This document shows, in pieces, positions 15,242-32,000 of a DNA stretch of 32,000 nucleotides. The DNA comes from Halogeometricum borinquense DSM 11551 (GTDB taxonomy: Archaea; Halobacteriota; Halobacteria; Halobacteriales; Haloferacaceae), in assembly GCF_000172995.2 (NCBI RefSeq), contig NC_014729.1, positions 1,170,001 to 1,202,000 of the forward strand, written 5' to 3'. Under the pieces are notes generated by a model, which was not told the DNA's origin, searched no databases, and worked only from the letters and a program-made list of their open reading frames with translations. How positions within the stretch are numbered: the stretch's first letter is position 1; every line of letters starts with the position of its first letter. Made by a program: the position numbers and the translations under genes.

Positions 15242-15293
15242 TGTGTGAATTATTGTCGTGGGTTAGGACTGGCTGAACTTGAGGATTGCCCGT

Positions 15294-16172: not shown

Positions 16173-16173
16173 G

Positions 16174-16551: not shown

Positions 16552-16552
16552 C

Positions 16553-17088: not shown

Positions 17089-18117
17089 TCACGCCCGAAC
17101 GGTCTCGCCGTCGGGTGACTGCTCGCGTTCGACGACGCGGCGGACGGGTTCTTCGAGTTCGACGAGGTGGCACAGCGGATTCCCCGGATAGACGACTGGG
17201 TTCTCCAAGACGCCAACGAGGAGGCCGGTAAACGGCGCTTGAATCGTCACGTTGTCGTCCTTGAACGGGTTGGTGATGGTGCAGATGCGGTCGCCTTCGT
17301 GGACGAGTGCGCCGCGGTCGTAGTGCATATCCACGATGCCGCCCGCGTCGGCGCGAATCCACGTCTTCTCGCTGTCGTCGTCGATGACCGTTCGCCAACC
17401 GGGCCATCGGACGGCGGTGGTGTCGCGTAACCCGTACTCCGCGAAGACGCTCTCGACGCCCGCGAGTGCTTCGTCAATGAGTTCGCGTTGGAACCGATGT
17501 GCTTCACCCATTTCGACGGTGATCGTCGGCACACCGACGGCTGTCGCCTCGGTGCGGAGCATCCCGCTGGAACCCTCCCCGGCGATAATGACGTGCGATC
17601 CGAACGCCCTCGCCAGTCGTGCGCTCCCGTCGTGTTCCATGTTTGCGCGGACGTGGATCATGTTCGTCCGCCCGCGCGTGGAGGTATGGAAATCGATGCC
17701 GAAATCGCAGGGGGCGATGAAGTTATCGAAAATGCGAGCGGCCATCCGCTTTGCACTCGTTGAGTCTTCGCGCCCGGGGAACGACCGATTCAGGTCGCGG
17801 TCATAAATCGGAAGATATCGCTGTTGAGCCAAGAATCCGGGAACGTTCAGGACGGGCATGCAGACGAGCGTCCCGGCGAGATCCGAGAGGTCCCACTCGT
17901 GGGCTACCTCACGCACTACCTCGATGCCGTTGAGTTCGTCACCGTGTGCAGCGGCCGAGAGGAACGCCGTCGGCCCGTCGCGTTCGCCGTTGACGATGGT
18001 GACGGGGATACGCACCGGATCGCCGAGATACGTCTCACTGATGCCGTAACGGATGTTCTGCGTCTCGCCCGGCGCAACCTTCCCGCCGTTGTACGTGAAC
18101 GCCCCATCGTCGCCCAT
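17089..18117 (-). CDS. succinylglutamate desuccinylase/aspartoacylase (AstE/AspA, M14-like) family deacylase
   Basis: Zn-binding H-x-x-E motif (AAHGDELNG), a downstream DFHTS histidine, and the typical length of about 340 aa. Confidence 0.85.
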   Translation of the reverse strand: MGDDGAFTYNGGKVAPGETQNIRYGISETYLGDPVRIPVTIVNGERDGPTAFLSAAAHGDELNGIEVVREVAHEWDLSDLAGTLVCMPVLNVPGFLAQQRYLPIYDRDLNRSFPGREDSTSAKRMAARIFDNFIAPCDFGIDFHTSTRGRTNMIHVRANMEHDGSARLARAFGSHVIIAGEGSSGMLRTEATAVGVPTITVEMGEAHRFQRELIDEALAGVESVFAEYGLRDTTAVRWPGWRTVIDDDSEKTWIRADAGGIVDMHYDRGALVHEGDRICTITNPFKDDNVTIQAPFTGLLVGVLENPVVYPGNPLCHLVELEEPVRRVVEREQSPDGETVRA

Positions 18118-18138
18118 ACCGGTCCTCGGGTTGCGGGA

Positions 18139-18146
18139 TATATAAA
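18139..18146 (-). promoter_or_regulatory. TATA box candidate for the deacylase gene
   Basis: The minus strand reads TTTATATA, 22-29 nt upstream of ATG 18117. This is consistent with a leaderless haloarchaeal transcript. Confidence 0.4.
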
Positions 18147-18234
18147 CACCGGCAACGTTCGACGATAGCGTTCTCCGTGCAAAGACGGCGTGACACCGGC
18201 ATTACTTTGATAGCGCGGGCTATTACGTAGTGGT

Positions 18235-19593
18235 ATGTCTGGCGACGGAGATTCGGTTCGTGTGGGTGTGTTGTCGCTACACAACAGCAAGGAGACGAAG
18301 GCTATCTTGAACGCGGTAGACGACTTGGGTCACGAGGGCGTCTGGCTCCGCCGAGAGAACACGGCAATAAGTATCGAAAACGGAGAAGTGTCGGTCGAAC
18401 CAGAAGTAGACATCATTGCGAATCGGTTACTGCTATCGAACACTGAGGAACCGGCCGAACTGTTGGGATTGGCGAGTACGTTCCAACGCATTCGACCGAT
18501 GTTGAACGAACCGTCGGCGGTGCTGGCGGCGATTCACAAGTTCGCTACTGCGGCGACGCTTGCGAACTGGAACATTCGGGTTCCCGACGCACTCCTCGCA
18601 CTCTCGAACGACCGACTGAATAAGGACCGCGACCGTTTCGGGGACGTCGGGGTCTACAAGTCGGCTATCGGGACTCACGGCGGTGGAACGTGGAAGGTTG
18701 ATCTCACGGAGGCCGTCAATCCAAAGGTCGGTAACCGACAGGCGTTCCTACAGGATCTCATCGAACGAGACGACACCCGACACCGCGACCTGCGCGTCTA
18801 CATCGTCGATGGCGAGATTATCGGGGCAATGTACCGCTACGCGCCGGACGGCGACTGGCGGACGAACGTCGCACTCGGGGGCGACGTGATGAACGCGACG
18901 GACGAGATGCCCGAAGAGGCCCGCGAGACGGCGCTGTACGCGGCGGAAGTGATGGAACTCGACTACGTCGGCGTGGACCTCGTAGAGGGCGAGGACGGCT
19001 GGTTCGTCCTCGAAGTCAATCCGACAGCCGGGTTCAAGGGTCTCTACAAGGCAACAAATCGGTCGCCTGCGCCGTTCATCGCCAAACTTGCTATCGAACA
19101 AGCGGGCGGGACGGTCGAACAATCCCGCGTCGAAGATCTCGCGGCGACGCTTGACGATTCCGAGCCGCGAAGCAAGCCCCGTGTGAATCCAAGTCCCGAC
19201 GGTGAGATACCGCTCATCGGCTACATCGAGGAGGTCGTCGTTTCCGGGACGAGCGGTTCGACGCAGGCCTATGCCAAGTCCGACACCGGAGCGACACGGA
19301 CGAGCATCGACACCTCGCTGGCAGCGGAAATCGGAGCCGGCCCGATCAAGAGCATGACGCGCGTGAAGTCGGGATCGATGAAGTCCGGCAAGGCCCGACC
19401 CGTCGTGGACCTCGTCATCGGTATCGCCGGAACGCAACACACCGTCACCGCAAGTGTCGAAGACCGGTCGCACATGGACTACCCACTTCTTCTCGGGCGC
19501 GACATCCTCCAGCACTACCGCGTGGACGTGCGCCGTCGCGTAGACGAGGGTGGGAAAGAGACGGACAGCGAAGAAGAGTACCTCGAAGAATAG
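18235..19593 (+). CDS. rimK: RimK-type ATP-grasp alpha-L-glutamate ligase fused to a retropepsin-like (putative ATP-dependent zinc protease, PF05618-type) domain
   Basis: The N-terminal ~290 aa form an ATP-grasp (LRVYIVDGEIIGAMYR, GVDLVEGEDGWFVLEVNPTAGF). The C-terminal ~120 aa carry AKSDTGATRTSID, VKSGSMKSGKARPVV and DYPLLLGRDIL..YRVDV, typical of the stand-alone proteins found next to bacterial rimK. Confidence 0.85.
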   Translation: MSGDGDSVRVGVLSLHNSKETKAILNAVDDLGHEGVWLRRENTAISIENGEVSVEPEVDIIANRLLLSNTEEPAELLGLASTFQRIRPMLNEPSAVLAAIHKFATAATLANWNIRVPDALLALSNDRLNKDRDRFGDVGVYKSAIGTHGGGTWKVDLTEAVNPKVGNRQAFLQDLIERDDTRHRDLRVYIVDGEIIGAMYRYAPDGDWRTNVALGGDVMNATDEMPEEARETALYAAEVMELDYVGVDLVEGEDGWFVLEVNPTAGFKGLYKATNRSPAPFIAKLAIEQAGGTVEQSRVEDLAATLDDSEPRSKPRVNPSPDGEIPLIGYIEEVVVSGTSGSTQAYAKSDTGATRTSIDTSLAAEIGAGPIKSMTRVKSGSMKSGKARPVVDLVIGIAGTQHTVTASVEDRSHMDYPLLLGRDILQHYRVDVRRRVDEGGKETDSEEEYLEE

Positions 19594-19643
19594 TACTGCT
19601 GAGACCGACGCGGCTATCCTTTCGGCGGACGCAAAGACAGCTG

Positions 19644-20207
19644 ATGGACCCGATACGAAACGACGAGCAACTGGCTCCACTCGTGGAAGAACACGGCGAA
19701 CTCGCCATCGAACCCGCCGATGACGAGTTCGAGCGCTTCGTCGTCTCGATTATCAACCAACAGCTCTCGACGCAATCTGCGGCGGCTATCAGAGAACGCC
19801 TGTTCGACCGGTTCGAGGTAACGCCGGAAGCGATGCTCAACGCCGACGAAACAGCGCTTCGGGATGTTGGACTCTCCTCACAGAAGATTTCGTACATCCA
19901 AAATGTAGCGACGGCGTTTCAAACGGACGACCTGACCCGTGCGGGAATGGCAGATCTAACCGACGAGGACGTTCTGATGCGACTGACAGAGATTCGCGGC
20001 GTCGGCGACTGGACCGCAAAGATGTATCTCATGTTCGTCCTCGGACGCGAGGACGTGTTCCCCGTCGAAGACCTCGGTATTCGGAAGGCGATGGCGGAAC
20101 TGTACCGGATGGACGAGAACGACCGGGCTGTGATGGTCAAACGCGCCGAGGCGTGGCGGCCGTACCGAAGCGTCGCGTCCCGGTACCTCTGGCGTGTCGT
20201 GGACTGA
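19644..20207 (+). CDS. DNA-3-methyladenine glycosylase II family (AlkA-like, HhH-GPD)
   Basis: Helix-hairpin-helix block LTEIRGVGDWTAKMYLMF followed by the catalytic-Asp region FPVEDLGIRKA. Confidence 0.8.
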   Translation: MDPIRNDEQLAPLVEEHGELAIEPADDEFERFVVSIINQQLSTQSAAAIRERLFDRFEVTPEAMLNADETALRDVGLSSQKISYIQNVATAFQTDDLTRAGMADLTDEDVLMRLTEIRGVGDWTAKMYLMFVLGREDVFPVEDLGIRKAMAELYRMDENDRAVMVKRAEAWRPYRSVASRYLWRVVD

Positions 20208-20295
20208 TCACGGCCAGAACACTCATACTCGAACGCCGAGAGTCGATACCGTGACGCATCTCCGTCACATTCCCCCTCGCTGCGACGCTCAACAA

Positions 20296-20332
20296 AAACT
20301 ATGAATAAACGGGCTAAGAGTTTTCATAGTTT
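20296..20332. promoter_or_regulatory. perfect 10-bp inverted repeat (candidate operator)
   Basis: AAACTATGAA (20296-20305) and TTCATAGTTT (20323-20332) are separated by 17 nt and lie 43-79 nt upstream of ATG 20375. Confidence 0.4.
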
Positions 20333-20374
20333 CTGAGGGAAACGTTGAAACGCCTCGCATCCGAGAATCCGGGT

Positions 20375-22354
20375 ATGGAGTTAGACGATATCAACACTAT
20401 CACGGTTCTCGGTGCAGGGAACATGGGTCACGGCATCGCCGAAGTTGCCGCTCTCGCCGGGTACCAAGTTAATCTGCGAGACATCAACGAGGAGTTTGTC
20501 CAGAACGGCTACGACCAGATCGAGTGGTCGCTCGGCAAACTCGCTGAGAAGGATCAGCTTTCCGACGAGGAGGCCAACGCCGCCCTCGAACGCGTGGCGA
20601 CGTACGTTGATCTCGCCGAGTCAGTTTCTGACGCCGACGTGGTCATCGAGGCCGTCCCCGAGAAGATGGACATCAAAAAGGACGTGTACACCGAGTTGGA
20701 GGCGGCCGCCCCCGACCACACCATCTTCGCGACGAACACATCCAGCCTCTCTATCAGCGAACTCGCGGACGTGACGGAGCGACCCGAGCAGTTCTGCGGG
20801 ATGCACTTTTTCAACCCACCCGTTCGGATGCAACTCGTCGAAGTCATCTCGGGTGCAGAGACCGCCGAGGAGACGATGGATGTCATCTCGGATCTTGCAG
20901 AGGCGATGGACAAGACGCCGGTCCGCGTCCACAAGGACAGCCCCGGTTTCATCGTGAACCGTATTCTCGTCCCCCTGATGAACGAAGCGGCGTGGGCCGT
21001 CGAATCCGGCGATACCACCATCGCGGAGGTTGACTCGACGGCGAAGTACGAAATCGGCCTGCCGATGGGGAGCTTCGAACTCGCAGATCAGGTGGGTATC
21101 GACGTGGGCTACCACGTCCTCCAGTATATGCACGAGGTGCTGGGCGATGCCTACGAACCATGTCCGCTCCTCGAAGAGAAAGTCGAGGAAGAGAAACTCG
21201 GCAAGAAGACGGGCAAGGGATTCTACGACTACGAGGATGGCGAGGGTGCGCAGGTTCCGTCCGATCAAACCAGCGAAGACGTTAGCCGTCGTCTGATGGC
21301 CGTGATGGCAAACGAAGTCGCCGGTCTCATCCAAAACGACGTGGCCGACGCCGACGCAATCGACCGCGCGGTGATGCTCGGCGGCGGGTTCCCCGACGGT
21401 CCCGCAAAGATGGCCGACGACGCGGGGCTGGAGACACTCGTGGAGACGCTCGACGAACTGCACGAAAAGACGGGTGCCGAGCGCTACGAGGCGGTTGACC
21501 TCCTCCGCGAACTCGCGGAATCCGGTGACCGCTTCCACGGGAGCGACGGCGGGGACGACGCCGACCCCTACGAGTTCGAGAACATCTCTGTCGAGATTCG
21601 TGATCGCGTGGGACACATCGAACTCGACCGTCCGCACCGGATGAACACCATCAGCTCCGACCTCGTGGACGACCTGTCGGGCGCTATCGACGCACTCGGC
21701 GCAGACGATGACGTGCGCGCGATTCTCCTCACCGGTGCCGGTGATCGTGCGTTCTCCGCCGGTGCGGACGTGCAGAGTATGGCTGGCGGCGCGGGCGACC
21801 CAACCGCCGGAGCGGAACTCTCGCGGAAGGGCCAGCGCACGTTCGGTAAGCTTGAGGAGTGCGACAAGCCCGTCATCGCCGCCATCGACGGTTACTGTCT
21901 CGGCGGCGGAATGGAACTCTCGATGTGTGCGGACCTCCGCATCGCAACGAAGCGTTCGGAGTTCGGCCAGCCCGAACACAATCTCGGTCTGATTCCCGGA
22001 TGGGGCGGTACCGTCCGCCTCCAGCGTATCGTCGGCACCGGCCGCGCGAAGGAGATTATCTTCACCGCCGACCGCTACGAGGCCGAGACGATGGCCGACT
22101 ACGGCTTCATCAACGAACTCGTAGAGAACGACGAGTTCGAAGAACAAGCCTTCGAGTACGCAAAGCAGTTCGCGCAGGGACCGCCCGTTGCCCAGCGGTA
22201 CACCAAGCGCGCCATGCACAACGGCTGGGAAGATACTGACGCCGGTCTCGAAGTCGAAGCGCAGTCATTCGGCCTTCTGTTCACGACAGACGACCTGATG
22301 GAGGGAATGACGGCGTTCATGGGCGACCGCGAACCCGACTTCAAGGGAGAGTAA
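20375..22354 (+). CDS. fused 3-hydroxyacyl-CoA dehydrogenase / enoyl-CoA hydratase
   Basis: N-terminal Rossmann motif ITVLGAGNMGHGIA and an HCDH core. The C-terminal crotonase fold carries FSAGADV and GYCLGGGMEL. The track start at 20345 is TTG, so ATG 20375 is preferred. Confidence 0.9.
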   Translation: MELDDINTITVLGAGNMGHGIAEVAALAGYQVNLRDINEEFVQNGYDQIEWSLGKLAEKDQLSDEEANAALERVATYVDLAESVSDADVVIEAVPEKMDIKKDVYTELEAAAPDHTIFATNTSSLSISELADVTERPEQFCGMHFFNPPVRMQLVEVISGAETAEETMDVISDLAEAMDKTPVRVHKDSPGFIVNRILVPLMNEAAWAVESGDTTIAEVDSTAKYEIGLPMGSFELADQVGIDVGYHVLQYMHEVLGDAYEPCPLLEEKVEEEKLGKKTGKGFYDYEDGEGAQVPSDQTSEDVSRRLMAVMANEVAGLIQNDVADADAIDRAVMLGGGFPDGPAKMADDAGLETLVETLDELHEKTGAERYEAVDLLRELAESGDRFHGSDGGDDADPYEFENISVEIRDRVGHIELDRPHRMNTISSDLVDDLSGAIDALGADDDVRAILLTGAGDRAFSAGADVQSMAGGAGDPTAGAELSRKGQRTFGKLEECDKPVIAAIDGYCLGGGMELSMCADLRIATKRSEFGQPEHNLGLIPGWGGTVRLQRIVGTGRAKEIIFTADRYEAETMADYGFINELVENDEFEEQAFEYAKQFAQGPPVAQRYTKRAMHNGWEDTDAGLEVEAQSFGLLFTTDDLMEGMTAFMGDREPDFKGE

Positions 22355-22423: not shown

Positions 22424-22498
<75 letters not shown>

Positions 22499-22509
22499 CT
22501 CCATTCTAC

Positions 22510-22673
22510 CGCCGTCTTGCGTTTTTGAGCCGTGAATAGAGCAATGATAGCCAATGTTTCAGGCCAAGTCGAAAACCAAGACTCGCTTACCCCGACGCCG
22601 TCTTGCGATTAGCGGTTTTGTCTCGCCCAGTCGATTCAAAGGACTGGCCAAATACGTGCGAACCGCAAGACGG
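22510..22673. repeat. three copies of a CCGTCTTGCG motif between tRNA-Glu and the integrase
   Basis: CGCCGTCTTGCG occurs at 22510-22521 and 22596-22607 as direct copies. An inverted copy CCGCAAGACGG lies at 22663-22673, just upstream of integrase ATG 22685. Confidence 0.5.
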
Positions 22674-22684
22674 AGGCACGTCTG

Positions 22685-23788
22685 ATGGACGAATTAGACG
22701 AACTCCCCGTCGTCACCGACGCATCGAGAGAGTACCTCAACCAGCGTCAACTGCTCGACTACCGGGCCGAGCGAGAAGCGTATCTCGAATGGCTCCTCAC
22801 GTTCGGAAAGAGACCGGACGAGGCGGTCGGGTACGCCCCGGGCACGGTGAAATCGGGTGCGTACCGGACGGACCGGTTCTACCGGTTCGTCTGGGACCAA
22901 GAGGGCGGGTACACGGCGAACGTCACGCACGATCACGCCGACGCGTGGATGAAGCATCTTGCACGCGGGGACACGGGCGCGACGAACAAGCGAAACTGCC
23001 AGAAAGCGGCCAAGCGGCTGTTCAAATGGCGACATCACGAGCACGGTCGCAGTGAATGGGATCCGGATATCACGTTCGCTGCCGACTCCAGTACGAACCC
23101 GCGGGACTACCTAACGCGCGAGGAGCGATCCGCGGTGCGCGAGGCAGCGCTCGAATACGGCTCCGTTCCAAATTACAAGAGCCTCACGCCGACGGAGCGA
23201 GACCGGTGGAAGCAGTATCTCGCCCAGCGATTCGAGAAACCGAAGTCGGAGGTCGGGCCCGACGACTGGGACCGCGCGAACGGGTGGAAGGTTCCGTCGC
23301 TAGTTTGGGCGAGTCTGGACGCGGGGCTTCGCCCTGTCGAAGTGAAGCGCTCGCAAGTCGGGTGGGTTGACACCGATAACGCGGTCCTCCGCATCCCGAA
23401 AGAGGAGAGCTCGAAAAATCGAGACCACTGGGTTGTCGGTCTCCAGTCCCGAACGGCCGAAGCGCTCGGCAACTGGCTCGAAGAGCGCGAGGCGTACCCG
23501 GAATACGACGATACGGAATCGATATGGCTGACTCGGAAGTCGAACCCGTATAACACGAAGACGCTTCGATACCTACTGCATCAACTCTGTGATATCGCCG
23601 ACATCGACACGACTCACCGGCAAATGAGTTGGTATACGATCCGCCACTCCGTCGGAACGTACATGACCCGTGAAGAGGATCTCGCGGCCACTCAGGCACA
23701 GCTCAGGCACAAGAGCGCCGAAACGACCATGAAGTACGATCAGGTACCGGTAGAAGATCGTCAAGATGCGTTAGACCGGATGGGATAG
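22685..23788 (+). CDS. tyrosine recombinase / phage-type integrase
   Basis: Catalytic-region blocks GLRPVEV (Arg I), WYTIRHSVGTY (H-x-x-R region) and TTMKYDQ (Tyr). The N-terminal SAM-like domain is typical of haloarchaeal provirus and plasmid integrases. Confidence 0.9.
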   Translation: MDELDELPVVTDASREYLNQRQLLDYRAEREAYLEWLLTFGKRPDEAVGYAPGTVKSGAYRTDRFYRFVWDQEGGYTANVTHDHADAWMKHLARGDTGATNKRNCQKAAKRLFKWRHHEHGRSEWDPDITFAADSSTNPRDYLTREERSAVREAALEYGSVPNYKSLTPTERDRWKQYLAQRFEKPKSEVGPDDWDRANGWKVPSLVWASLDAGLRPVEVKRSQVGWVDTDNAVLRIPKEESSKNRDHWVVGLQSRTAEALGNWLEEREAYPEYDDTESIWLTRKSNPYNTKTLRYLLHQLCDIADIDTTHRQMSWYTIRHSVGTYMTREEDLAATQAQLRHKSAETTMKYDQVPVEDRQDALDRMG

Positions 23789-23886
23789 ATAGGTACACAC
23801 CTATTTACAGGCTAATTCACTTTCCGACTCCTTTGAACAGATTACGACTATCAGGTCTCCCGCCGTACCGCCTCTGTCGATAATTC

Positions 23887-25005
23887 TCAGAGGATGTTCG
23901 CTGCTGAGCGCCGGAGTTCTTCAGTCGGGTGGACGTATCGAGCAGCTGACGACGTACTGTTTTGTCGTAACACTTCGGCAACGATTTTGAGGTCTTTGTG
24001 CTCCTCGTACGTGTACGTACCGAGGGTGTGTCTGAATGAGTACCAACAGAGCTTTCGGCCTCGTTCGGTGATTCCGGCTTCCTCGATGAGGTTATTGAGG
24101 AGGTAGTTGAGCGTTTGTGAGCTGTACGGGTTGCCTTTCCGTGTGAGCCACATGTGATCAGAGTCGTCGTATTTGCTGATGTTCGCTCGTTGCTCAATCC
24201 ACAACTCAAGCGGTCGAGTGGCTTTTTCCGGTAGAGCCTGGCTCCACTCTGAATTGTTTTTGACCGCGTGCTCTGCAGGGATGATGATCGTCTTTGAATC
24301 GGAATCATACCAGTGGACTTGCATCCGCTTGATGAGCGCTGGCCGCCATCCTGCGGCCTTTACTGTCCCGATGAGCGACGGAATTTTCCAATTCCTGTTG
24401 ACCCGGTCCCAATCTGCCGGTCTGACTTCGTCCTTAGGTTTGCCGAGTTCCTGTGCGAGGTACCCCCGCCAACGGTCCCGTTCGTCCGGGGAGAGGTTAT
24501 TGTATTTCGGGATGGACTTGTAGGTCAGCGATGTTTCCCAGAGCGAATTAACCTCGGCTTTGTTGAACGGGTCTGCTCCGTTCTCAGCCGGCTTGTCGTT
24601 GAAGCTGATTTCAGGTTCCCAGTCTGAACCGTGGAATCGGAACCAGTTGACTAGTGCGTTCGAAATCTTTCGTTTGCTCCCCTCAGAATAGCGCTCGCCA
24701 TCGCGCCGGCGGAACTCGTCAGTGGCGAGCGCTTCAATCACTTGATCCGCTTGTTTCGGTGAGATCTCTGTGGCGGGTTCATCGGTCTCCCAAACCCACC
24801 GAATAGCTTGTAGTACTCGTGAGACTCGCGTTCCGATTGACCGTTCCGCATATCCGATCTCTTTTCGCGGATTCTTTCCCTCTGAACGAAGATATTGCTC
24901 GAACTCCTCAAGGGTCGATTCGAAGATGACCTTTTGTCGCGTGCCCAACTGCGGGAACGACTCCCCTAAGTCATCTGCAGAATAACTACTCATGACTGCC
25001 ACCAT
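23887..25005 (-). CDS. tyrosine recombinase / phage-type integrase (paralogue of 22685..23788)
   Basis: Blocks GWRPALI, WYSFRHTLGTY and AARYVHP. It shares ERDRW..YLAQ...KPK.EV.P.DWDR and WLTRK.NPY blocks with the other integrase. The start is uncertain (ATG 25005 or 24993). The track start at 25170 is a TTG. Confidence 0.85.
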   Translation of the reverse strand: MVAVMSSYSADDLGESFPQLGTRQKVIFESTLEEFEQYLRSEGKNPRKEIGYAERSIGTRVSRVLQAIRWVWETDEPATEISPKQADQVIEALATDEFRRRDGERYSEGSKRKISNALVNWFRFHGSDWEPEISFNDKPAENGADPFNKAEVNSLWETSLTYKSIPKYNNLSPDERDRWRGYLAQELGKPKDEVRPADWDRVNRNWKIPSLIGTVKAAGWRPALIKRMQVHWYDSDSKTIIIPAEHAVKNNSEWSQALPEKATRPLELWIEQRANISKYDDSDHMWLTRKGNPYSSQTLNYLLNNLIEEAGITERGRKLCWYSFRHTLGTYTYEEHKDLKIVAEVLRQNSTSSAARYVHPTEELRRSAANIL

Positions 25006-25432
25006 CCAAGTCGAACTGCGAATCCCGAGGAGCGTTTCAACTGACTTGGAGACCACCTCCTCGGACCTGATTCCCCGAGGTGGTAATCGATTGCCGAGTG
25101 ATGCAACGTGATCATCGATCTGAACAGTTACAGTAACCACCCGTTTTAAAACATTAGTGTTGAGAATCAATCAATACCGACGGAGCTGAGTGAAAGAGGT
25201 TGAATACGGGGGTATGAGCTGCTAAAAGTCAAGATCGAGTCTCAGGGGGGCGTATTGAGAATCCACAGCTTTCGCCCCTGCTACGCAAGGGGCACCCCAT
25301 ATTTTGAGAGCGAACGAAATGAATTCTCCAAAACCCGGTACAAGCTTACGGATAGATGCGAAGCAATTTCCTCACCACAGATTGGGTTCCAGTTGAGTCC
25401 ATAGACAGAGCAATCGAGTACCTTGGATTTGA

Positions 25433-25616: not shown

Positions 25617-27887
25617 CTACAGCACTTGACGAACTATTGAACCAATTCGCTCGATCACTGCAGTTTCGCTTTGGTCATCTCGCGCGGCTTCACAGAGGTC
25701 GTCGAAACACTTGGCGAGTGTGGCTACGATGTCCCGAGGGAGTGCTCTTGGGTCAACGACTGGAATGTTTTTGACATCCCCTGGCTCAACTTTTGGTAAT
25801 CCGTCTGCGAGTACCCGCTGCTGCTGAGCGATTCCAGAATCACCGAACAAGTAGTTCAGGTACGCCAGTAGCGCCTTCTCGCCTTGCCGGGTTATCTCCG
25901 GGTCCGGATAGATCCCGTAGTAACTGTTCAGATGTCTGGCGTCCGTCTCATTATCTATCGCGCGGAATCCTGATCGGCCTGTCACCGTCACGAGGATCGG
26001 CGCAGTATCACCGCGCTCTACTCGGTACCAGGGATTCCGGCCGTGTACTGTTGACCTCGTCGAGAGTGTTTCGTGGTCGGTCAGGCCATGACGCAGATAC
26101 TCAATTATTGGGGGTTCTGGATCCGTGGTCAGTGAGTCTTCTGCCCAGTCGGCTGACCCAGTGTCGTCGTTATAGGTCGTCTCGGGGACTCCCGGTACCT
26201 GGTCAAGGTAGTAGAGCAGCCACGTTGGCCGCCCGTGGCTATCGTAGTCATTCCAATCCTCGGGACGGATATCATACCCATCGACGTACCGTCGGCTTGG
26301 AACGATGCGTGACAGGCACTGCGGGTCGATTCCCCAGTCATCGACTTGATCCTGTGAGAGACAGAAGAAGTCGTTCTCACCGGTCTGCAACCCCCGGTGG
26401 ACGTCTGCGAGATCCGAGAGTGGCGGTAGGTCGGACCGCTCGTCAGAGGTCGGCTCGAACAAATTATCCCATCGTTCCTCTGGATTCAGCTCCGACTGCT
26501 CAATACAGTTGATTACTCCCCAGTCCGTCTCTCCACAAGAACCATGCCGAGCTGCCTCTAGTTTCGTCTGAACGCCAGGGTCATTGTCGACGCGAATGAA
26601 CCGTGTCGCCCCGACATCGGCTTCGTCATCGGTCGCTTCAAGGAGCACGACCATACTGGTTGTCTGTGCCGTTTCGAATTTTGACTCGTTCTTTGGGTTG
26701 TCCAAAAGAAGCGCCTTGATGTCGAATTCCCGGAGCAAGAATTGCTTGAGGGGCTCACCGAAACCCCGTGAGAGGAAGTGATGAGGCGTGAGGACGGCCG
26801 CCCGATCCCCTGTGTCGAGGAACCGTCCGAGATGGTAGTAGAAGTACGCGTACAGCGGGGACGTTTTCGGGATCTCTAATTCAGTTTGGTTCTCGGCTTG
26901 CGCGTTGAGTTTGTCTTTGTACGCCGAAGAGAGTGATTCGTGGCGCGTGTAGGGCGGGTTACAGAGGATCGCGTCCACGTCTTGGGTTAAGTCCGCTGGA
27001 TCCAACTCGAAGAAATCAGTTCTACGGGTCTCGTGCCGTTGCCCGGAGATCGTCTGTGCGACTCGTCCCATAAGCGCTGCAAGTGGACTACGATCAACCC
27101 CATTAACACGGCCTGGATCAGTGCTTATCTCCCAATCCGGATGGAACGGTGCCGACAGTTCGCCAGCACCCATCCCAGGGTCAAGCACGGTGTCGTCACC
27201 GCTGACAGCCCAGGTTCGCATCAACTCTGCAAGTTCCGTCGGTGTTCGGTGCTGTCCGAGAACCCGACGATGATTTCCGGCGATCAACGTCTCGTACAGA
27301 TGTCCGATATCCGTTGCTGGCTGGGTGGACTCCAGAAGCTGATCTCGTGCTTCTGTCACGGCGATGGTCTTAGCTTCGACGCCCCAGAGGATCTCATCTA
27401 ATGCACACGCAGTAAACGCCGAGTCACCGGTTTCCTCGTAAGCGATCTTGAACTGTTCCTGCGCGTTGCCTTCGAATTCCGGGAGGCCGCCGCGTCGATG
27501 GTACCATTCGTGGAGCGTGGCCTTCAACAGGAGTCCGAACGCCGCTTGGTTAGCGATGATCGAAGGTGTCGCGTCGTCACTGGGAACGTATCCGTGGAGG
27601 CCACACCACGATTCGACTGCTGCTTGAATTTTGGGTGACGGATCCGCGATTCCGGACTCAAGATCTGCAGCAGTTGCTTCCAATTGCTCGATGAGGTCGT
27701 CGCTGTAGGCCGACTCGTTCCTCAACCCAGTACTGACGCGCTCGCCTCTCGGCGGCTCTGGTTGTGACCGAGCAAGCGGGGACGTGGCGTCGATACTGGT
27801 TACCGGGATATCTGGTTCACAATCGACAGCCGCATAGGTGCAGTTGAGATGTGTTACTCGGCGAAATCTGCCCCGTTGAGTTGTCAT
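25617..27887 (-). CDS. N6-adenine DNA methyltransferase, gamma class (Eco57I/TaqI-like architecture)
   Basis: Motif X GQHRTPTELAELM, motif I VLDPGMGAGEL and motif IV NPPY. The C-terminal target-recognition-like region carries LADVHRGLQTGENDFF and LLAYLNY. About 210 aa at the N-terminus are unassigned. Confidence 0.9.
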   Translation of the reverse strand: MTTQRGRFRRVTHLNCTYAAVDCEPDIPVTSIDATSPLARSQPEPPRGERVSTGLRNESAYSDDLIEQLEATAADLESGIADPSPKIQAAVESWCGLHGYVPSDDATPSIIANQAAFGLLLKATLHEWYHRRGGLPEFEGNAQEQFKIAYEETGDSAFTACALDEILWGVEAKTIAVTEARDQLLESTQPATDIGHLYETLIAGNHRRVLGQHRTPTELAELMRTWAVSGDDTVLDPGMGAGELSAPFHPDWEISTDPGRVNGVDRSPLAALMGRVAQTISGQRHETRRTDFFELDPADLTQDVDAILCNPPYTRHESLSSAYKDKLNAQAENQTELEIPKTSPLYAYFYYHLGRFLDTGDRAAVLTPHHFLSRGFGEPLKQFLLREFDIKALLLDNPKNESKFETAQTTSMVVLLEATDDEADVGATRFIRVDNDPGVQTKLEAARHGSCGETDWGVINCIEQSELNPEERWDNLFEPTSDERSDLPPLSDLADVHRGLQTGENDFFCLSQDQVDDWGIDPQCLSRIVPSRRYVDGYDIRPEDWNDYDSHGRPTWLLYYLDQVPGVPETTYNDDTGSADWAEDSLTTDPEPPIIEYLRHGLTDHETLSTRSTVHGRNPWYRVERGDTAPILVTVTGRSGFRAIDNETDARHLNSYYGIYPDPEITRQGEKALLAYLNYLFGDSGIAQQQRVLADGLPKVEPGDVKNIPVVDPRALPRDIVATLAKCFDDLCEAARDDQSETAVIERIGSIVRQVL

Positions 27888-28381: not shown

Positions 28382-28696
28382 CTACGTTTCGATCAGGTGA
28401 CCGAATTCGTCGACGACGATCTCACCGTCGATGCCGTGTTCTTCGCACCAGTCCAGCGCTGCTTCCTCGTTGAGGGGTTTGATCTCCGCACCGCCAGTCG
28501 TGCCGCCCCCGTTACACGGCTTGGCGTATTTGGTTGCTGCACCGCCCTCTCCGTGGAGGAAGTACTCTCCCCCTGAGGTCTTGTATAGCGTTTCGATGAG
28601 GTAGTAGAAGTCACCTCGATCCGTGTTTGGGGCATGTTGGGCGATCTGTTCAGCTCGATCCGTGTCGTACAGTTTCCGGTCGATGACGCGCTGCAT
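28382..28696 (-). CDS. conserved hypothetical protein (104 aa)
   Basis: Start set at ATG 28696 (MQRVIDRKLYDTDRAE...). The pattern DFYY..ETLYKTSGGEYFLHGEGGA...I.PL..EEA..W resembles a small protein family I recall from bacterial and phage mobile elements but cannot name. Confidence 0.6.
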   Translation of the reverse strand: MQRVIDRKLYDTDRAEQIAQHAPNTDRGDFYYLIETLYKTSGGEYFLHGEGGAATKYAKPCNGGGTTGGAEIKPLNEEAALDWCEEHGIDGEIVVDEFGHLIET

Positions 28697-28979: not shown

Positions 28980-31900
28980 CTATTCTTCTGACCTAGGACC
29001 AACGCTGAAGGAGTCCGGTGCACAGGGCAGTTGGTTGTGTTGACACCACTGGCAATGCTCGTCAGCGCTGTACCGGTTGAACGAGAATTCCGAAATACGG
29101 GTCATGGACTCCGTCACGTCGTCCGTGACTGCTTCTAGGTCAGCATCGCTGAACGTCCGCGTTTCGACTTTCGGCCCGATTTCGCCAACGTACGCGTACC
29201 CAGCGCGCGTCACTGGCTCGTCGTACAGGTCACAGCACGCCAACAGATAGATCGGGAGTTGCTTATCGTCCTCCAGGTCTCGGTGGCGCTCGGTGGCCTT
29301 GTAGTCGATGACGAGGAGCCCATCGTCCGGCGTCCGGTAGACTGCGTCAATATAGCCGACGAGTTCGTGCCCATCAATATCGAGTTCGAACTCCCGCTCC
29401 GCGTCGATGATCTCGCAATTGGGGAGCTCTAACTCGAAGTACCGGTCGATGCACTCCTTCGCCGCCGTGAGTGCATCTTCAGCGCGGCGGTGACTGGCGA
29501 GACGCTCGCAGATCTCGTACCAGTCCCCACGGCGTTTCACGCCTTGCTTCGCGGCTTGTTCTGCGGTGTCGTGGAACAGCAATCCGATTTCACGTTGTGA
29601 TACACCGCCCCCGGAATCGCTTCTGACTGTGGTCTCCTGATAGTCGGGGAATGCGTTGACCACGTAGTCCAGGTAGTGACTCCGTGGGCATTCTTCGTAG
29701 GCAGCCAGTGACGTGTAGCTGTGCGAAAGCGATGGTGACGGTGTCGACGGGTCGGTCAGCGACGCAACCTGGAGTGTCTCCCGCTCAGCTCTCGGGGAGA
29801 GCTCTCCGTTGAGGGTGGCTGTTGCAAGGTCTAGCACGCGGTCGCGCGCCGCCGCGACTGCGAGTTCTTCCCCGGCGTGATTGACGGTCCCGCCAACGTG
29901 CCCGACTGTCTCGGTGGCCAGTGTGTCCGTCCAGTCTACCGCCTCTCTCGGGAGACAGTCTTGAACGTCGGCCCAGAGGGGGAGCTGTCCTCGCTCCGGT
30001 TGCCATGGGATTCGGGACGGGAGAATTTCGTCAACGGATTCTGAAACGGGGTGTACGTCCGTAGCATCGTCGTCTTCGCTGCCGCCCTGGAGGACGAGGA
30101 CATCTTCGGCGCGCGTGATGCCGACGTGGAACACGCGACGGGTTTCACGGGCGTCACGCTCGACGAAGTCCTCGGCAAACGCCGCCTCTGCGCCGTCTGA
30201 AAGGCTGGTTTCGAGCGCGTCGTAGGTGCGTGAACTCGGTGCCCACTCGCCCGCTGTGACTTGCGGGATGAGGACGACTGGGAAGTCAAGGCCCTTGCTC
30301 TTGTGGATAGTCATCACGTTGACCGCGTCGTCGGCGACATCCGGCTGACTCGTCGGGGACGAGCCGCTCTCGTCGAACAGAGAGTCGTAGTGTTCGAGCG
30401 AGTCGATGAACTCCGGGGTGAGCGGTGGTTGAACAGCGCTGTCTCCGTACTGTTCGATGACATCCTCCAGCTGGGCGAGATCCCGACGTTCCTGCTCGCT
30501 GAGATACCACTCGATATTCGTGACGTCTGTGAGCTCGCGGTACAGATGACTGAGCGACGCTGAATCTCGGATAGCGAGGAGTTCCGTGACGTGTTTACGG
30601 GCCTCCGCGACGCGGTCTGGCTCCTCGAACTCGTCGAGTGGCGTCTCGCGGAGCGTGTCCACGAGCGGGTCATCGCCCGCGTTGAGCTTGCGGAGGTCTG
30701 TATCGCAGAGCCGGTACCGCATCAGGAGGACGCGATTCCAGCTCACCTCGTCTTCGGGGCGTGCGAGTGCCTTTAGGTAGGCGGTCACGGTGCCGACACC
30801 AACGGATTCCGTGGCCAGATCCCCTGCAACCTGGTACGGGATGCCAGCGTCTTCGAATTCCTCGATGACTGGTGTCGCGTGGTCGTTTTTCCGGACGAGT
30901 AACGCGATGTCGCCCGGGTCGTACGCCTCATCGAAACTCTCTGCTGCCCCGCTCAGCAAGTTCTGCACGACGGTACGAAGCTGAGAAGCACCGTCCGCAT
31001 CGTCCTCATCCGACAGCTCGACGGTAGCGATGGTGTCCCCATCGTACTCGGGTTCGTCGACGCGCTTCAGTGTCTTGTGACGTTCCCGGTGATCGAGTTT
31101 CTGAATCGCCTCGTTCGCCAAGTCCAGGATCGGCTGCCGAGAGCGGAAATTCTCCTCTAAGGGTTCGTCGGAGAGTGCCGCGAATGCGCGGTCGAGTTCA
31201 TCAGTGATGTTGGCGACGTGCGCGCCGCGCCACTCGTAGATCGCCTGATCGTCGTCACCCACGACGAACAGGTTGTCGTCAGTGACGAGTGACTTGACGA
31301 GGTCGAACTGCAGGCGGTCGGTGTCCTGAAACTCGTCACAGAACACGTAGTCCCACCGAGCAGCGATTTCCTCCCCGACCGGCGACTCCATCAGCTCGGC
31401 CGCCTCTACAACTAGACCGTCGAAGTCGATGAGATTCCGCTCATCGAGTTCCCGCTCGTACGCGGCGTATCCGGCCGTCAGGTCACGGGCCGTCAGACAG
31501 TCCGAGAGGAACGAGTCGAGATGATCCGTGAGCTCAAGATCAAGGTCACCAGGGATTCCTTTCGGCGCACCGTTCGCGTACCCACCGAGTAGATACTTCG
31601 GGAGCTTGTACGCGTTGTCCGGCAGGTCCCGGTCGCCCGCCTCGTGGGCTTCAAACGCCGCTTCTAGCGCATCGCAAAGATCCACCAAGCGGTCGAGGAA
31701 ATCGCGTACACTGGCCTCCATTCCGTCCATCCCCAACACATCACGTTCTTCAACGAGGTCAGCACGGACGTCTGGGAGCGAGTCCAGCACGCTCGACACG
31801 GACCGGCCGCCCAGATGGTCACTGGCAATCGCCTCGACGCGCTCCGAGAGGTCGGCGAGTTCGTAGACACGGTCAGCAGGACCGAGGAACGCGTCGATAT

Positions 31901-32000
31901 CGTCGGGCGTGATGCCGCTGCGTTTCATCGATCCGATGAAGTTGAGCAACTTCGATGCGGCCCCTGACGCGTACCCATCAGAGCCGTACACGTTGGGTTT
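28980..32000 (-). CDS. UvrD/REP-type SF1 helicase fused to a Cas4/AddB-like Fe-S PD-(D/E)XK nuclease, 5'-partial
   Basis: Helicase motifs are II DEFQD, III VGDDDQAIYEWRGA, IV NFRSRQ, V TIHKSKGLDFPVV and VI VGITRAED. The C-terminal nuclease carries GYIDAV, VIDYK and QLPIY, with Cys768 plus C980-x2-C983-x6-C990 in track numbering. The Walker A motif is absent, and the frame is open to the window edge (the track start at 31991 is a GTG). Confidence 0.9.
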   Translation of the reverse strand, partial: KPNVYGSDGYASGAASKLLNFIGSMKRSGITPDDIDAFLGPADRVYELADLSERVEAIASDHLGGRSVSSVLDSLPDVRADLVEERDVLGMDGMEASVRDFLDRLVDLCDALEAAFEAHEAGDRDLPDNAYKLPKYLLGGYANGAPKGIPGDLDLELTDHLDSFLSDCLTARDLTAGYAAYERELDERNLIDFDGLVVEAAELMESPVGEEIAARWDYVFCDEFQDTDRLQFDLVKSLVTDDNLFVVGDDDQAIYEWRGAHVANITDELDRAFAALSDEPLEENFRSRQPILDLANEAIQKLDHRERHKTLKRVDEPEYDGDTIATVELSDEDDADGASQLRTVVQNLLSGAAESFDEAYDPGDIALLVRKNDHATPVIEEFEDAGIPYQVAGDLATESVGVGTVTAYLKALARPEDEVSWNRVLLMRYRLCDTDLRKLNAGDDPLVDTLRETPLDEFEEPDRVAEARKHVTELLAIRDSASLSHLYRELTDVTNIEWYLSEQERRDLAQLEDVIEQYGDSAVQPPLTPEFIDSLEHYDSLFDESGSSPTSQPDVADDAVNVMTIHKSKGLDFPVVLIPQVTAGEWAPSSRTYDALETSLSDGAEAAFAEDFVERDARETRRVFHVGITRAEDVLVLQGGSEDDDATDVHPVSESVDEILPSRIPWQPERGQLPLWADVQDCLPREAVDWTDTLATETVGHVGGTVNHAGEELAVAAARDRVLDLATATLNGELSPRAERETLQVASLTDPSTPSPSLSHSYTSLAAYEECPRSHYLDYVVNAFPDYQETTVRSDSGGGVSQREIGLLFHDTAEQAAKQGVKRRGDWYEICERLASHRRAEDALTAAKECIDRYFELELPNCEIIDAEREFELDIDGHELVGYIDAVYRTPDDGLLVIDYKATERHRDLEDDKQLPIYLLACCDLYDEPVTRAGYAYVGEIGPKVETRTFSDADLEAVTDDVTESMTRISEFSFNRYSADEHCQWCQHNQLPCAPDSFSVGPRSEE

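What the first reader, a model, noticed from the sequence alone, without database searches (positions are those of the whole stretch)
28980..32000. Single-polypeptide AddAB-like helicase-nuclease in an archaeon
UvrD motifs II-VI are followed by a RecB-family nuclease whose core (D...D/E-x-K in GYIDAV / VIDYK, then QLPIY) is bracketed by one N-terminal Cys (EECPR) and a C-terminal C-x2-C-x6-C. This is the 4Fe-4S staple arrangement of Cas4 and AddB. Haloarchaea lack canonical RecBCD/AddAB, so such a fusion on a mobile element is unusual. There is also a long, acidic insertion of more than 200 aa before motif II.
Basis: partly seen in the sequence, partly recalled or inferred. Interest (0 to 1): 0.6.

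Follow-up and report, generated by a model that had tools for sequence, protein, structure and literature searches.

The report
AddA-like helicase-nuclease of a haloarchaeal defence island
The gene is a real UvrD-type helicase fused to a Cas4/AddB-type nuclease with four conserved cysteines, but in relatives it is always the last gene of a three-gene AddAB-like module that moves between salt-loving archaea on islands and plasmids, often in one operon with an Argonaute defence system.

Summary
Window 28980-32000 (-) is the C-terminal 1006 codons of a ~1150-aa protein cut by the window end. It has UvrD motifs II-VI and a PDDEXK_1 nuclease domain (E 1.8e-23). The D, DYK, QLxxY and C...CxxCx6C residues are invariant down to 33% identity.

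- **Not single-polypeptide.** In 53-55 of 57 related haloarchaeal loci the gene closes a module with overlapping genes: a 686-aa Walker-A-less helicase-like protein (best solved match AddB, E 1.7e-8), a 301-aa four-Cys Cas4-like nuclease, then this gene. That reads as a split AddB plus an AddA/RecB-like motor-nuclease.
- **No special insertion.** The "acidic insertion" is a RecB-sized 1B domain, no more acidic than the rest.
- **Mobile.** It lies in an island at tRNA-Glu with two integrases. Relatives sit in unrelated contexts and on 17 plasmids, at 90-91% identity across three families.

In 15 loci the module follows ago-agaP (the published APAP system) with a 5-nt gap.

Most likely role, inferred: a portable DNA-end-processing machine that degrades invader DNA and feeds guides to Argonaute. 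The domain fusion and the pAgo-helicase link are in the literature; the tripartite reading is new but untested.

The parts
28980..32000 (-). Helicase-nuclease gene ('helnuc'): C-terminal 1006 codons plus stop. The N-terminal ~147 codons (motifs I/Ia) lie beyond the window end.
   Evidence: ORF list and translation. Full-length homologues of 1145-1154 aa at 80-92% identity.
31488..32000 (-).
   Evidence: Collinear with RecB up to motif II. Pfam profile gap of ~135 aa. AF2 helices with pLDDT 70-93 at P0001 residues 160-350. D+E 20% vs 21.5% overall.
31200..31487 (-). UvrD-helicase domain segment with motif II (DEFQDTD, 31317-31337) and motif III (31221-31259).
   Evidence: Pfam PF00580, 1.3e-28. 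Motif coordinates. Invariant columns.
30090..31160 (-). UvrD_C (2A/2B) domains with motif IV (31134-31151), V (30282-30311) and VI (30105-30125).
   Evidence: Pfam PF13361, 1.7e-29. Coordinates.
29721..30089 (-). Linker between motor and nuclease (~120 aa).
   Evidence: No Pfam hit. Low pLDDT.
29034..29720 (-). PD-(D/E)XK nuclease domain of Cas4/AddB type. Catalytic D (GYIDAV, 29340-29357), D-Y-K (29298-29312), Q-x3-Y (29247-29261).
   Evidence: Pfam PF12705, 1.8e-23, and NCBIfam cas4, 1.2e-6. Invariant residues. Weak profile hits to AdnB/AdnA nuclease domains and ACE1. Foldseek hits to ACE1 and Cas4 SSO0001.
29682..29696 (-). N-terminal cysteine of the putative 4Fe-4S staple (EECPR).
   Evidence: Invariant Cys in 13 and in 45 homologues.
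29022..29054 (-). C-terminal C-x2-C-x6-C of the putative 4Fe-4S staple.
   Evidence: All three Cys invariant.
28385..28696 (-). Conserved 104-aa ORF downstream of helnuc, function unknown.
   Evidence: 66-92% identical copies at the same relative position in 7 related loci. No family hit.
25617..27887 (-). N6-adenine DNA methyltransferase (NPPY; Eco57I/N6_Mtase), paired with the 104-aa ORF.
   Evidence: Pfam and PADLOC MTase_II. Homologues at 41-54% identity downstream of helnuc in 9 other loci.
23887..25170 (-). Tyrosine recombinase/integrase.
   Evidence: Pfam Phage_integrase, 8.4e-13.
22685..23788 (+). Tyrosine recombinase/integrase next to the tRNA.
   Evidence: Pfam Phage_integrase, 3.1e-15. 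NCBIfam XerA-type.
22424..22499 (+). tRNA-Glu(UUC), the likely integration site and boundary between core genes and island.
   Evidence: ARAGORN. Core metabolic genes upstream. G+C falls from ~0.60-0.63 to 0.51-0.57 at 24-29 kb.

Best explanation
The gene encodes the active motor-nuclease subunit of a three-protein AddAB-type DNA-end-processing machine. It plays the part of AddA/RecB/AdnB. The machine is carried on a mobile defence island integrated at tRNA-Glu.

The two partners lie just beyond the window end in all close relatives. One is a 686-aa helicase-like scaffold without a Walker A motif, homologous to the N-terminal part of AddB. The other is a 301-aa Cas4-like nuclease with its own four cysteines. 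Together they correspond to an AddB split into two genes.

Inferred mechanism, by analogy with AddAB. The complex binds a double-stranded DNA end. The single SF1A motor pulls the 3'-terminated strand and unwinds the duplex. Its C-terminal nuclease cuts that strand. The scaffold guides the other strand into the 301-aa nuclease.

In about a third of related loci the module shares an operon with, or sits next to, a long-A Argonaute and its PLD nuclease AgaP (the APAP system). The likely biological role is therefore to degrade linear or nicked invader DNA and to produce the small single-stranded DNA guides that Argonaute loads. RecBCD/AddAB do this for bacterial pAgos, and haloarchaea otherwise lack that activity.

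Shown: domain content, conserved catalytic and cysteine residues, the invariant three-gene module, AddB homology of the scaffold, mobility, and co-occurrence with ago-agaP.

Inferred: complex formation, the Fe-S cluster, strand polarity, guide generation, and whether this particular island carries the partners and ago.
For: - **Domains and motifs:**. Invariant D/DYK/QLxxY and 1+3 Cys down to 33% identity.
- **Three-gene module:** found with 4-nt gene overlaps in every well-covered relative. ORF clusters for nuc301, p686 and helnuc occur in 55, 54 and 53 of 57 distinct sources, 56 fetched loci plus the window. The three proteins diverge in step: tiers of roughly 90%, 80%, 65%, 50% and 30% identity.
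- **p686 resembles AddB:** its profile hits B. subtilis AddB (3u44_B) best, E 1.7e-8, then UvrD1, Rep and AdnA. hhalign to an AddB-like 1081-aa protein gives 94.9% probability, E 4.6e-8, collinear over 455 columns. It is homologous to the helnuc motor (E 8e-5) but has no GKT.
- **nuc301:** PDDEXK_1 at 1.2e-23. C17 plus CxxCx5C are invariant; D, DYK and QTAxY are conserved in all sequences except the ~30% clade (L055/L056).
- **Fold search:** best match of the helnuc model is AddA 3u44_A (4e-15), then RecB (low-confidence model).
- **1B domain:** RecB-sized.
- **Link to pAgo:** ago-agaP lies immediately upstream in 15 distinct loci, with a 5-nt gap between agaP and p686. A second clade at ~65% identity has ago and/or agaP-like genes downstream, in a different arrangement.
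- **Literature:** APAP is experimentally a defence system, and its authors note an untested neighbouring helicase (PMC11442185). UvrD+PD-(D/E)XK orthogroup og_6 is listed among proteins enriched in pAgo operons (PMC6299218). AddAB/RecBCD generate siDNA guides, and the source of guides in hosts lacking them is open (PMC12094033).
- **Mobility:** tRNA-Glu plus two integrases. 17 haloarchaeal plasmids carry it. Identity is 90-91% across Haloferacaceae, Natrialbaceae and Haloarculaceae. Neighbours are defence genes: Mrr, MTase, ATPase_2/DUF234, DEAD+MZB, ThiF+JAB, McrBC.
Against: - The window ends inside the gene. The partner genes and ago/agaP are not seen for this locus; they are inferred from relatives at 80-92% identity.
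- Most related loci (roughly 35 of 57) have the module without pAgo, so guide production cannot be its only role.
- No experiment addresses the module.
- AF2 models are poor (pLDDT 43 and 54), so the fold evidence is weak.
- The helicase core scores higher against PcrA/UvrD than against RecB/AddA models, and far below the AddA/RecB equivalog cut-offs.
- Unlike B. subtilis AddA (own knowledge), this subunit carries the four cysteines.
- nuc301 has no significant match to solved AddB by sequence.
Confidence: 0.6

Rival explanations
1. Accessory double-strand-break resection machine. This would be an AddAB/AdnAB analogue acquired by horizontal transfer that serves recombinational repair or replication-fork processing of the host or its plasmids, with no dedicated role in immunity.
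For: The module occurs without pAgo in most related loci. Its architecture is that of repair enzymes. Archaea are not known to have RecBCD/AddAB (own knowledge), so such a machine could add repair capacity.
Against: Distribution is patchy: 54 loci, all Halobacteria, among 185,579 species genomes by pattern scan. The scaffold family is tiny: 82 clusters in 1.84 billion proteins. It sits in islands and plasmids beside integrases, transposases and defence genes. It forms operon fusions with ago-agaP. Decayed copies exist.
Confidence: 0.17
2. Restriction arm of a methylation-dependent self/non-self system. The helicase-nuclease module would attack DNA lacking, or carrying, the mark written by the adjacent N6-adenine methyltransferase. 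This would resemble the UvrD-Cas4 fusions found with type III R-M or Dcm genes.
For: A 104-aa ORF plus an Eco57I/TaqI_C-type methyltransferase follow helnuc on the same strand here and in 7-9 other loci. UvrD-Cas4 fusions have published links to R-M genes (PMC5704561).
Against: The methyltransferase is absent from about 47 of 57 sources. It is only 41-54% identical where present, while the module is 85-91%. In this window it is separated from the 104-aa ORF by ~500 nt. Other loci carry Mrr, ATPase or integrase genes at that position instead.
Confidence: 0.1
3. First reader's reading. The protein would be a self-sufficient single-polypeptide helicase-nuclease that acts alone, comparable to Nhi-type or stand-alone UvrD-Cas4 defence proteins.
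For: One polypeptide carries an intact motor and an intact nuclease with conserved Fe-S ligands. The partner genes are not visible in the window itself.
Against: Two partner genes with overlapping stop/start codons are present in essentially every related locus and co-diverge with it. One of them is AddB-like.
Confidence: 0.07

Closest known systems
AddAB helicase-nuclease (Bacillus subtilis; PDB 3U44/4CEJ)
   Same: - One active UvrD-like SF1A motor fused to a RecB-family nuclease (AddA role).
- A partner with a degenerate helicase-like fold plus a Cas4-type nuclease bearing 1+3 cysteines (AddB role).
- B-like genes precede the A-like gene, as in addB-addA (gene order from my own knowledge).
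- Best solved match of p686 is AddB. Best fold match of helnuc is AddA.
   Different: - The B subunit is split into two genes (686 + 301 aa).
- The scaffold has no Walker A motif.
- The A-like subunit also carries the four cysteines. AddA does not, to my knowledge.
- Scores lie far below the NCBIfam AddA/AddB cut-offs.
- It is archaeal, accessory and mobile rather than a core repair operon.
AdnAB motor-nuclease (mycobacteria; PDB 6PPJ/6PPR/6PPU)
   Same: - Both nuclease modules are Cas4/RecB-type. The ACE1 paper describes AddAB and AdnAB nuclease domains as using such cysteines to bind an Fe-S cluster (PMC12094033).
- AdnB/AdnA nuclease domains are among the top profile hits for the helnuc nuclease domain (E 0.06-0.2; a spurious snRNP hit at E 0.043 ranks first).
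- The helnuc motor hits AdnB at 2e-17.
   Different: - AdnA is a full motor-nuclease polypeptide with ATPase motifs (own knowledge).
- Here the second 'motor' lacks Walker A and is separated from its nuclease.
UvrD-Cas4-like fusion proteins of pfam12705 (Hudaiberdiev et al. 2017, PMC5704561)
   Same: - Same domain architecture: UvrD-like SF1 helicase plus C-terminal Cas4-like PDDEXK_1.
- Reported in bacteria and mesophilic archaea, in defence contexts.
   Different: - Those were described as stand-alone or linked to type III R-M or Dcm/Vsr.
- The obligatory p686 and nuc301 partners and the ago-agaP link are not part of that description.
- Whether helnuc falls inside that monophyletic clade was not tested.
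APAP system (long-A pAgo + PLD protein AgaP) of haloarchaea (Cheng et al. 2024, PMC11442185); pAgo operon orthogroup og_6 (Ryazansky et al. 2018, PMC6299218)
   Same: - In 15 related loci the module is the 3' part of an ago-agaP operon.
- The authors mention a neighbouring helicase gene.
- og_6 is a UvrD + PD-(D/E)XK group listed among proteins enriched in pAgo operons.
   Different: - APAP was defined and tested as two genes only.
- The helicase-nuclease module was not analysed or tested.
- The module also occurs without pAgo.
ACE1/ACE2 Argonaute-associated Cas4-family nucleases (PMC12094033; PDB 9IAB/9IAC)
   Same: - Cas4-family Fe-S nuclease co-encoded with long-A pAgo.
- ACE1 contributes to siDNA trimming.
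- ACE1 structures match the helnuc nuclease core and its profile weakly.
   Different: - ACE proteins lack a helicase. The paper found them only in bacteria: ACE1 only in cyanobacteria, ACE2 mostly in Bacillota.
- Here two Cas4-type nucleases come with a motor and a scaffold.

Membership tests
AddA (AddAB subunit A) | SF1A UvrD-like motor with intact helicase motifs. | tested here: met
   Motifs II-VI in the window. Motif I GAGTGKT in full-length relatives, invariant or near-invariant. Pfam UvrD-helicase and UvrD_C.
AddA (AddAB subunit A) | C-terminal RecB-family PD-(D/E)XK nuclease. | tested here: met
   PDDEXK_1, 1.8e-23. Catalytic residues invariant.
AddA (AddAB subunit A) | Score above the NCBIfam equivalog cut-off (TIGR02785 707.65 bits; TIGR02784 860.75). 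| tested here: not met
   83.1 and 84 bits for the truncated protein. PcrA/Rep/UvrD models score higher, also below their cut-offs.
AddB (AddAB subunit B) | Partner polypeptide combining an inactive helicase-like domain with a Cas4-type Fe-S nuclease. | tested here: inconclusive
   Both parts exist in relatives, but as two genes. p686 hits AddB 3u44_B at E 1.7e-8, and an AddB-like protein at 94.9% hhalign probability. nuc301 has the 1+3 Cys and catalytic motifs but no significant match to solved AddB. Neither is visible in the window.
AdnAB | Two subunits, each a UvrD-like motor with ATPase motifs fused to a RecB-like nuclease. | tested here: not met
   p686 lacks Walker A (consensus TGxPTSxDTF, no conserved GKT). 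It is not fused to its nuclease.
RecB (RecBCD) | Score above the TIGR00609 cut-off (696 bits); partners RecC and RecD. | tested here: not met
   116.2 bits. No RecD-like SF1B gene among the conserved neighbours.
Cas4 | PD-(D/E)XK core bracketed by one N-terminal and three C-terminal cysteines. | tested here: met
   C771 and C983/C986/C993 of the window protein are invariant in homologues.
Cas4 | Stand-alone ~200-aa protein scoring above TIGR00372 (65 bits), usually in a cas operon. | tested here: not met
   28.5 bits. It is a domain of a 1150-aa protein. No cas genes in the window or in related loci.
4Fe-4S 'iron staple' nucleases | A bound iron-sulfur cluster. | not testable with these tools
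   Only ligand conservation can be shown. This needs UV-vis/EPR on purified protein.
UvrD-Cas4 fusion clade of pfam12705 (PMC5704561) | UvrD-like helicase N-terminal to a pfam12705 nuclease in one polypeptide. | tested here: met
   Monophyly with the published clade was not tested.
Gabija GajB | UvrD-like helicase encoded next to the OLD/TOPRIM nuclease GajA, without its own nuclease domain. | tested here: not met
   PADLOC GajB hits cover only the generic helicase core. The protein has its own nuclease. No GajA-like conserved neighbour among 57 loci.
APAP (pAgo-AgaP) operon accessory | Encoded in or next to an ago-agaP operon. | tested here: inconclusive
   Met in 15 related loci, and in another arrangement in 3-7 more. 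The upstream region of this gene lies outside the window. 6 of the 7 related loci sharing the window's 104-aa+MTase pair do carry ago-agaP.

The most novel reading that the evidence does not exclude
Haloarchaeal Argonaute islands carry their own portable AddAB-type machine: a motor-nuclease, an AddB-like scaffold and a separate Fe-S nuclease. It would supply the DNA-end processing that bacterial pAgos borrow from host RecBCD/AddAB. On this reading it makes siDNA guides and finishes off invader DNA after pAgo/AgaP cleavage. To my knowledge it would be the first AddAB-type resection complex working in archaea, and a dedicated, co-transferred guide-biogenesis module for a long-A pAgo.
Probability: 0.35. 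Interest if true: 0.7.

Novelty: new variant of a known kind. Interest (0 to 1): 0.5.

Why it matters
How long-A Argonautes get their DNA guides in hosts without RecBCD/AddAB is stated as an open question (PMC12094033). The one tested haloarchaeal system, APAP, was studied without the adjacent helicase genes (PMC11442185).

If the three-gene module is an AddAB-like end processor that travels with ago-agaP, it gives a concrete, genetically tractable candidate for guide biogenesis and target clearance in archaea. It would also be an example of a bacterial-type resection machine, in split form, spreading among archaea on mobile elements.

It could also matter for tools. Mesophilic pAgos are limited by their inability to open double-stranded DNA, and a natively matched helicase-nuclease partner could help.

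If the module is only an accessory repair enzyme, the finding is a modest addition to the catalogue of UvrD-Cas4 fusions.

Tried and rejected
- **AF2, p686 (40-sequence alignment):** mean pLDDT 43, so I ran no fold search on it.
- **AF2, full-length helnuc relative (45 sequences):** mean pLDDT 53.8. Only the 1B arm and the nuclease core are confident. The Foldseek ranking (AddA, RecB, PcrA...) is used as weak support only, because TM-scores are ~0.15.
- **nuc301 against solved structures:** no hit by profile. hhalign to an AddB-like protein aligned only the catalytic motif, 8% probability. The 'AddB nuclease half' assignment therefore rests on Pfam/Cas4 hits, the Cys pattern and gene order.
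- **PADLOC:** only generic GajB/DRT-helicase hits for helnuc and none for p686, so this is not a catalogued system. Gabija rejected.
- **Viruses:** no relative in IMG/VR. Only generic helicase hits in phage genomes. A provirus origin is not supported.
- **Source genome:** not among the GTDB representatives (best 91%), so the missing upstream part could not be recovered.
- **Repeats:** a search for an att-like direct repeat of the tRNA 3' end within 22.3-32 kb found nothing meaningful. The far island boundary lies outside the window.
- **Literature:** searches for any study of the module with pAgo found only passing mentions. The AdnAB structure paper was not in the held library.


Full report
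**What is in the window**

On the minus strand an ORF ends at 28980 and remains open to the last base of the window. The 1006 visible residues give three strong Pfam hits:
- UvrD-helicase, residues 172-267, 1.3e-28
- UvrD_C, residues 281-637, 1.7e-29
- PDDEXK_1, residues 761-989, 1.8e-23

NCBIfam adds a weak Cas4 match over the C-terminal half of the nuclease domain.

Full-length homologues are 1145-1154 aa, so about 147 N-terminal residues with motifs I/Ia are cut off by the window end. I aligned 13 homologues reaching down to 33% identity. The N-terminal Cys, the three C-terminal Cys, the catalytic Asp, D-Y-K and Q-L-x-x-Y are all invariant. The same holds in a 45-sequence alignment.

**The 'acidic insertion'**

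The 221 residues before motif II are not unusually acidic: 20% D+E against 21.5% for the whole protein. That is ordinary haloarchaeal composition.

The alignment to E. coli RecB pairs window residues 157-302 with RecB 309-464. Adding the 147 missing residues makes the two proteins collinear to within 5 residues from the N-terminus to motif II. Against the Pfam UvrD profile the extra length is about 135 aa, inside domain 1B. The AF2 model, poor elsewhere, predicts long helices there with pLDDT 70-93. This is the enlarged 1B 'arm' typical of RecB/AddA-type motors, not a novelty.

**The gene is not alone**

The closest relatives (80-92% identity) come from many haloarchaeal genera. I looked up the contigs encoding three of them, read RefSeq annotation of a Haloferax plasmid, and fetched 54 loci from species-representative genomes. 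They all show the same arrangement: a 686-aa gene, a 301-aa gene overlapping it by 4 nt, and the helicase-nuclease gene overlapping that by 4 nt.

Clustering all ORFs of the 57 distinct sources (56 fetched loci plus the window) gave these counts:

| Gene cluster | Sources (of 57) |
|---|---|
| nuc301 (301 aa) | 55 |
| p686 (686 aa) | 54 |
| helnuc | 53 |
| AgaP | 22 |
| pAgo | 18 |
| AAA/DUF4143 ATPase | 12 |
| Methyltransferase | 10 |
| 104-aa ORF | 8 |

Apart from shadow ORFs that overlap the module genes, no other gene cluster is shared by more than 22 sources. The shortfalls for the module are contig ends or decay. The three proteins also diverge in step, in tiers of roughly 90, 80, 65, 50 and 30% identity. 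They are inherited as a unit.

**What the partners are**

- **The 301-aa protein** is a PDDEXK_1/Cas4-like nuclease (1.2e-23). It has an invariant N-terminal Cys and C-x2-C-x5-C, with conserved D, DYK and QTAxY.
- **The 686-aa protein** has no Pfam domain above threshold, only a weak UvrD_C hit. A profile built from 13 diverse members finds B. subtilis AddB (3u44_B) as the best solved structure: E 1.7e-8, residues 63-326 on AddB 56-355. UvrD1, Rep and AdnA follow.
- **Family size.** An exhaustive HMM search of 1.84 billion representatives finds only 82 clusters for the 686-aa family. The nearest outsider is a 1081-aa protein that NCBIfam recognises as AddB-like. hhalign between the p686 profile and that protein gives 94.9% probability, E 4.6e-8, collinear over 455 columns.
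- **Motor status.** p686 is also homologous to the motor of its neighbour (E 8e-5). It has no Walker A: the consensus is TGxPTSxDTF with no conserved GKT.

So p686 plus nuc301 look like an AddB split in two, and the gene in the window plays the AddA/RecB role. The Foldseek ranking of the helnuc model agrees: AddA 3u44_A at 4e-15, then RecB, PcrA, UvrD and AdnB, with the nuclease core matching ACE1 and Cas4. The model is low-confidence and TM-scores are low. The gene order, B-like then A-like, is that of addB-addA (my own knowledge).

**Membership**

The protein does not reach the NCBIfam equivalog cut-offs for AddA, RecB or Cas4. Its helicase core is closer to PcrA/UvrD. It carries four cysteines, which AddA does not (my own knowledge). 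The B-like partner is split and lacks Walker A, unlike AdnA.

It should therefore not be filed as AddA, AdnB or RecB. It works like them. By architecture it belongs with the UvrD-Cas4-like fusions, which Hudaiberdiev et al. described as the largest pfam12705 branch in bacteria and mesophilic archaea, with defence-type neighbourhoods (PMC5704561).

**Mobility**

In the window, core genes run up to tRNA-Glu at 22424-22499: branched-chain permeases, succinate dehydrogenase, UbiA, RimK and FadB-like. After the tRNA come, in order:
- two tyrosine recombinases
- an N6-adenine methyltransferase
- a conserved 104-aa ORF
- the helicase-nuclease

G+C falls to 0.51-0.57 in this stretch.

Relatives sit next to different tRNAs, integrases, transposases and defence genes: McrBC, Mrr, ATPase_2/DUF234, DEAD+MZB and ThiF+JAB. 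Seventeen haloarchaeal plasmids carry a full-length copy. Copies from Haloferacaceae, Natrialbaceae and Haloarculaceae are 90-91% identical to the window protein. No viral contig or phage genome carries it. This is an accessory, horizontally moving module, not a syntenic core repair gene.

**Link to Argonaute**

In 15 distinct related loci the module is preceded by a long pAgo and a 706-aa PLD-family protein. The pAgo is ~890 aa with a Piwi domain, a PADLOC pAgo score of 1073 bits and a weak N-terminal replication-factor-A-like hit. Gaps are 64 nt between ago and the PLD gene and 5 nt between the PLD gene and p686. That makes one five-gene operon.

A second clade (~65% identity) has pAgo and/or an AgaP-like PLD gene downstream instead. 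Several loci retain only AgaP fragments.

The pAgo-PLD pair is the APAP system. It was shown experimentally to restrict plasmids and a ssDNA virus in Haloarcula hispanica. Its authors remark that a helicase gene neighbours some ago-agaP operons and may help, but did not test it (PMC11442185). Ryazansky et al. listed a UvrD + PD-(D/E)XK orthogroup among proteins enriched in pAgo operons (PMC6299218). Bacterial long-A pAgos obtain siDNA guides from RecBCD/AddAB, and the source of guides in hosts lacking these enzymes is described as unclear (PMC12094033).

**Most likely mechanism**

I infer a heterotrimeric AddAB-type end processor:
- The window's protein is the only motor. By analogy with AddA it is SF1A and moves 3'-5'. 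It cuts the strand it translocates on.
- p686 is the scaffold for the other strand.
- nuc301 cuts that other strand.

On islands with ago-agaP the module would degrade broken invader DNA and generate guides. Elsewhere it may act as a stand-alone RecBCD-like barrier to linear DNA, or as accessory repair.

The domain assignments, the module, the AddB homology, the mobility and the co-occurrence are shown. Complex formation, the Fe-S cluster, polarity and guide production are inferred.

Whether this particular island contains the partners and ago cannot be seen. Six of the seven related loci that share the window's 104-aa+MTase pair do carry ago-agaP.

**Rivals**

- **Accessory DSB repair.** Supported by the many pAgo-less loci. 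Weakened by the island/plasmid context and patchy distribution.
- **Methylation-linked restriction with the adjacent methyltransferase.** The MTase pair recurs in only ~10 of 57 sources and is far more divergent than the module.
Contradicted by the invariant partners.

**Verdict**

The interpretation needs revising from 'single-polypeptide AddAB-like' to 'AddA-like subunit of a split, three-gene AddAB-like module on a mobile defence island, frequently operonic with pAgo-AgaP'.

The domain fusion and the pAgo-helicase association are already in the literature. In the papers I could search I found neither the tripartite AddAB-like reading nor the split AddB-like scaffold described, and the module's function has not been tested. 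I score it as moderately interesting: 0.5, a new variant of a known kind.

Noticed in passing
window 28385-28696 (-) and 25617-27887 (-); L006 13454-16290; L007 16345-19203; L010, L018, L030, L039, L046: A 104-aa ORF with no family hit (66-92% identical between loci) is followed by an Eco57I/TaqI_C-type N6-adenine methyltransferase that is only 41-54% identical. The pair recurs downstream of the helicase-nuclease on the same strand. The small protein being far better conserved than the enzyme is unexplained.
   Followed up: partly
L007 21545-22890; L010 19937-22342: Dense arrays of 9 and 14 tRNA genes lie a few kb downstream of the module and methyltransferase in Natribaculum breve and Halorussus marinus. 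Such arrays are more typical of large viruses or megaplasmids than of chromosomal islands.
   Followed up: no
L055 8623-9564; L056 8623-9564: In the most distant clade (~30% identity) the 301-aa nuclease has lost D-Y-K and Q-x3-Y but keeps all four cysteines. This suggests a purely structural or DNA-binding Fe-S domain there. The motor-nuclease keeps every catalytic residue.
   Followed up: partly
L004 6056-6679 (Natronomonas moolapensis); L011, L035, L053; plasmids NC_007427.1 113073-113975 and CP007061.1 246862-247863: Decay products. AgaP is reduced to fragments upstream of an intact module. There are also unannotated C- or N-terminal fragments of the helicase-nuclease on Natronomonas pharaonis pL131 and a Halobacterium sp. 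DL1 plasmid.
   Followed up: no
L001 1-1925; L005 1-1907; L060 1-2474: A very large SACS/NOV_C (DUF3883) protein (1597 aa) and an AAA/DUF4143 ATPase (PADLOC PDC-S01-like) lie upstream of ago on the opposite strand. The ATPase recurs in 12 loci. This may be a further component or a neighbouring defence gene.
   Followed up: no
L037, L049, L051, L052 at 13003-21833; L042, L047, L054 at 13653-19888: In the ~65% identity clade a conserved 375-aa gene with no Pfam hit lies convergent to the helicase-nuclease. It is followed by an AgaP-like PLD gene without pAgo, a ThiF+JAB gene and a DEAD+MZB helicase (four loci), or by pAgo plus an AgaP-like gene (three loci).
   Followed up: partly
window 22424-25170: Two tyrosine recombinase genes in opposite orientation lie directly after tRNA-Glu. 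This may mean two elements integrated in tandem or a remnant. No att-like repeat was found inside the window.
   Followed up: partly
window 29451-29453 and 29235-29237 (residues C850 and C922 of the window protein): Two further cysteines in the nuclease domain (KECIDRY and LLAC) are invariant in all 13 aligned homologues, in addition to the four expected Fe-S ligands.
   Followed up: no
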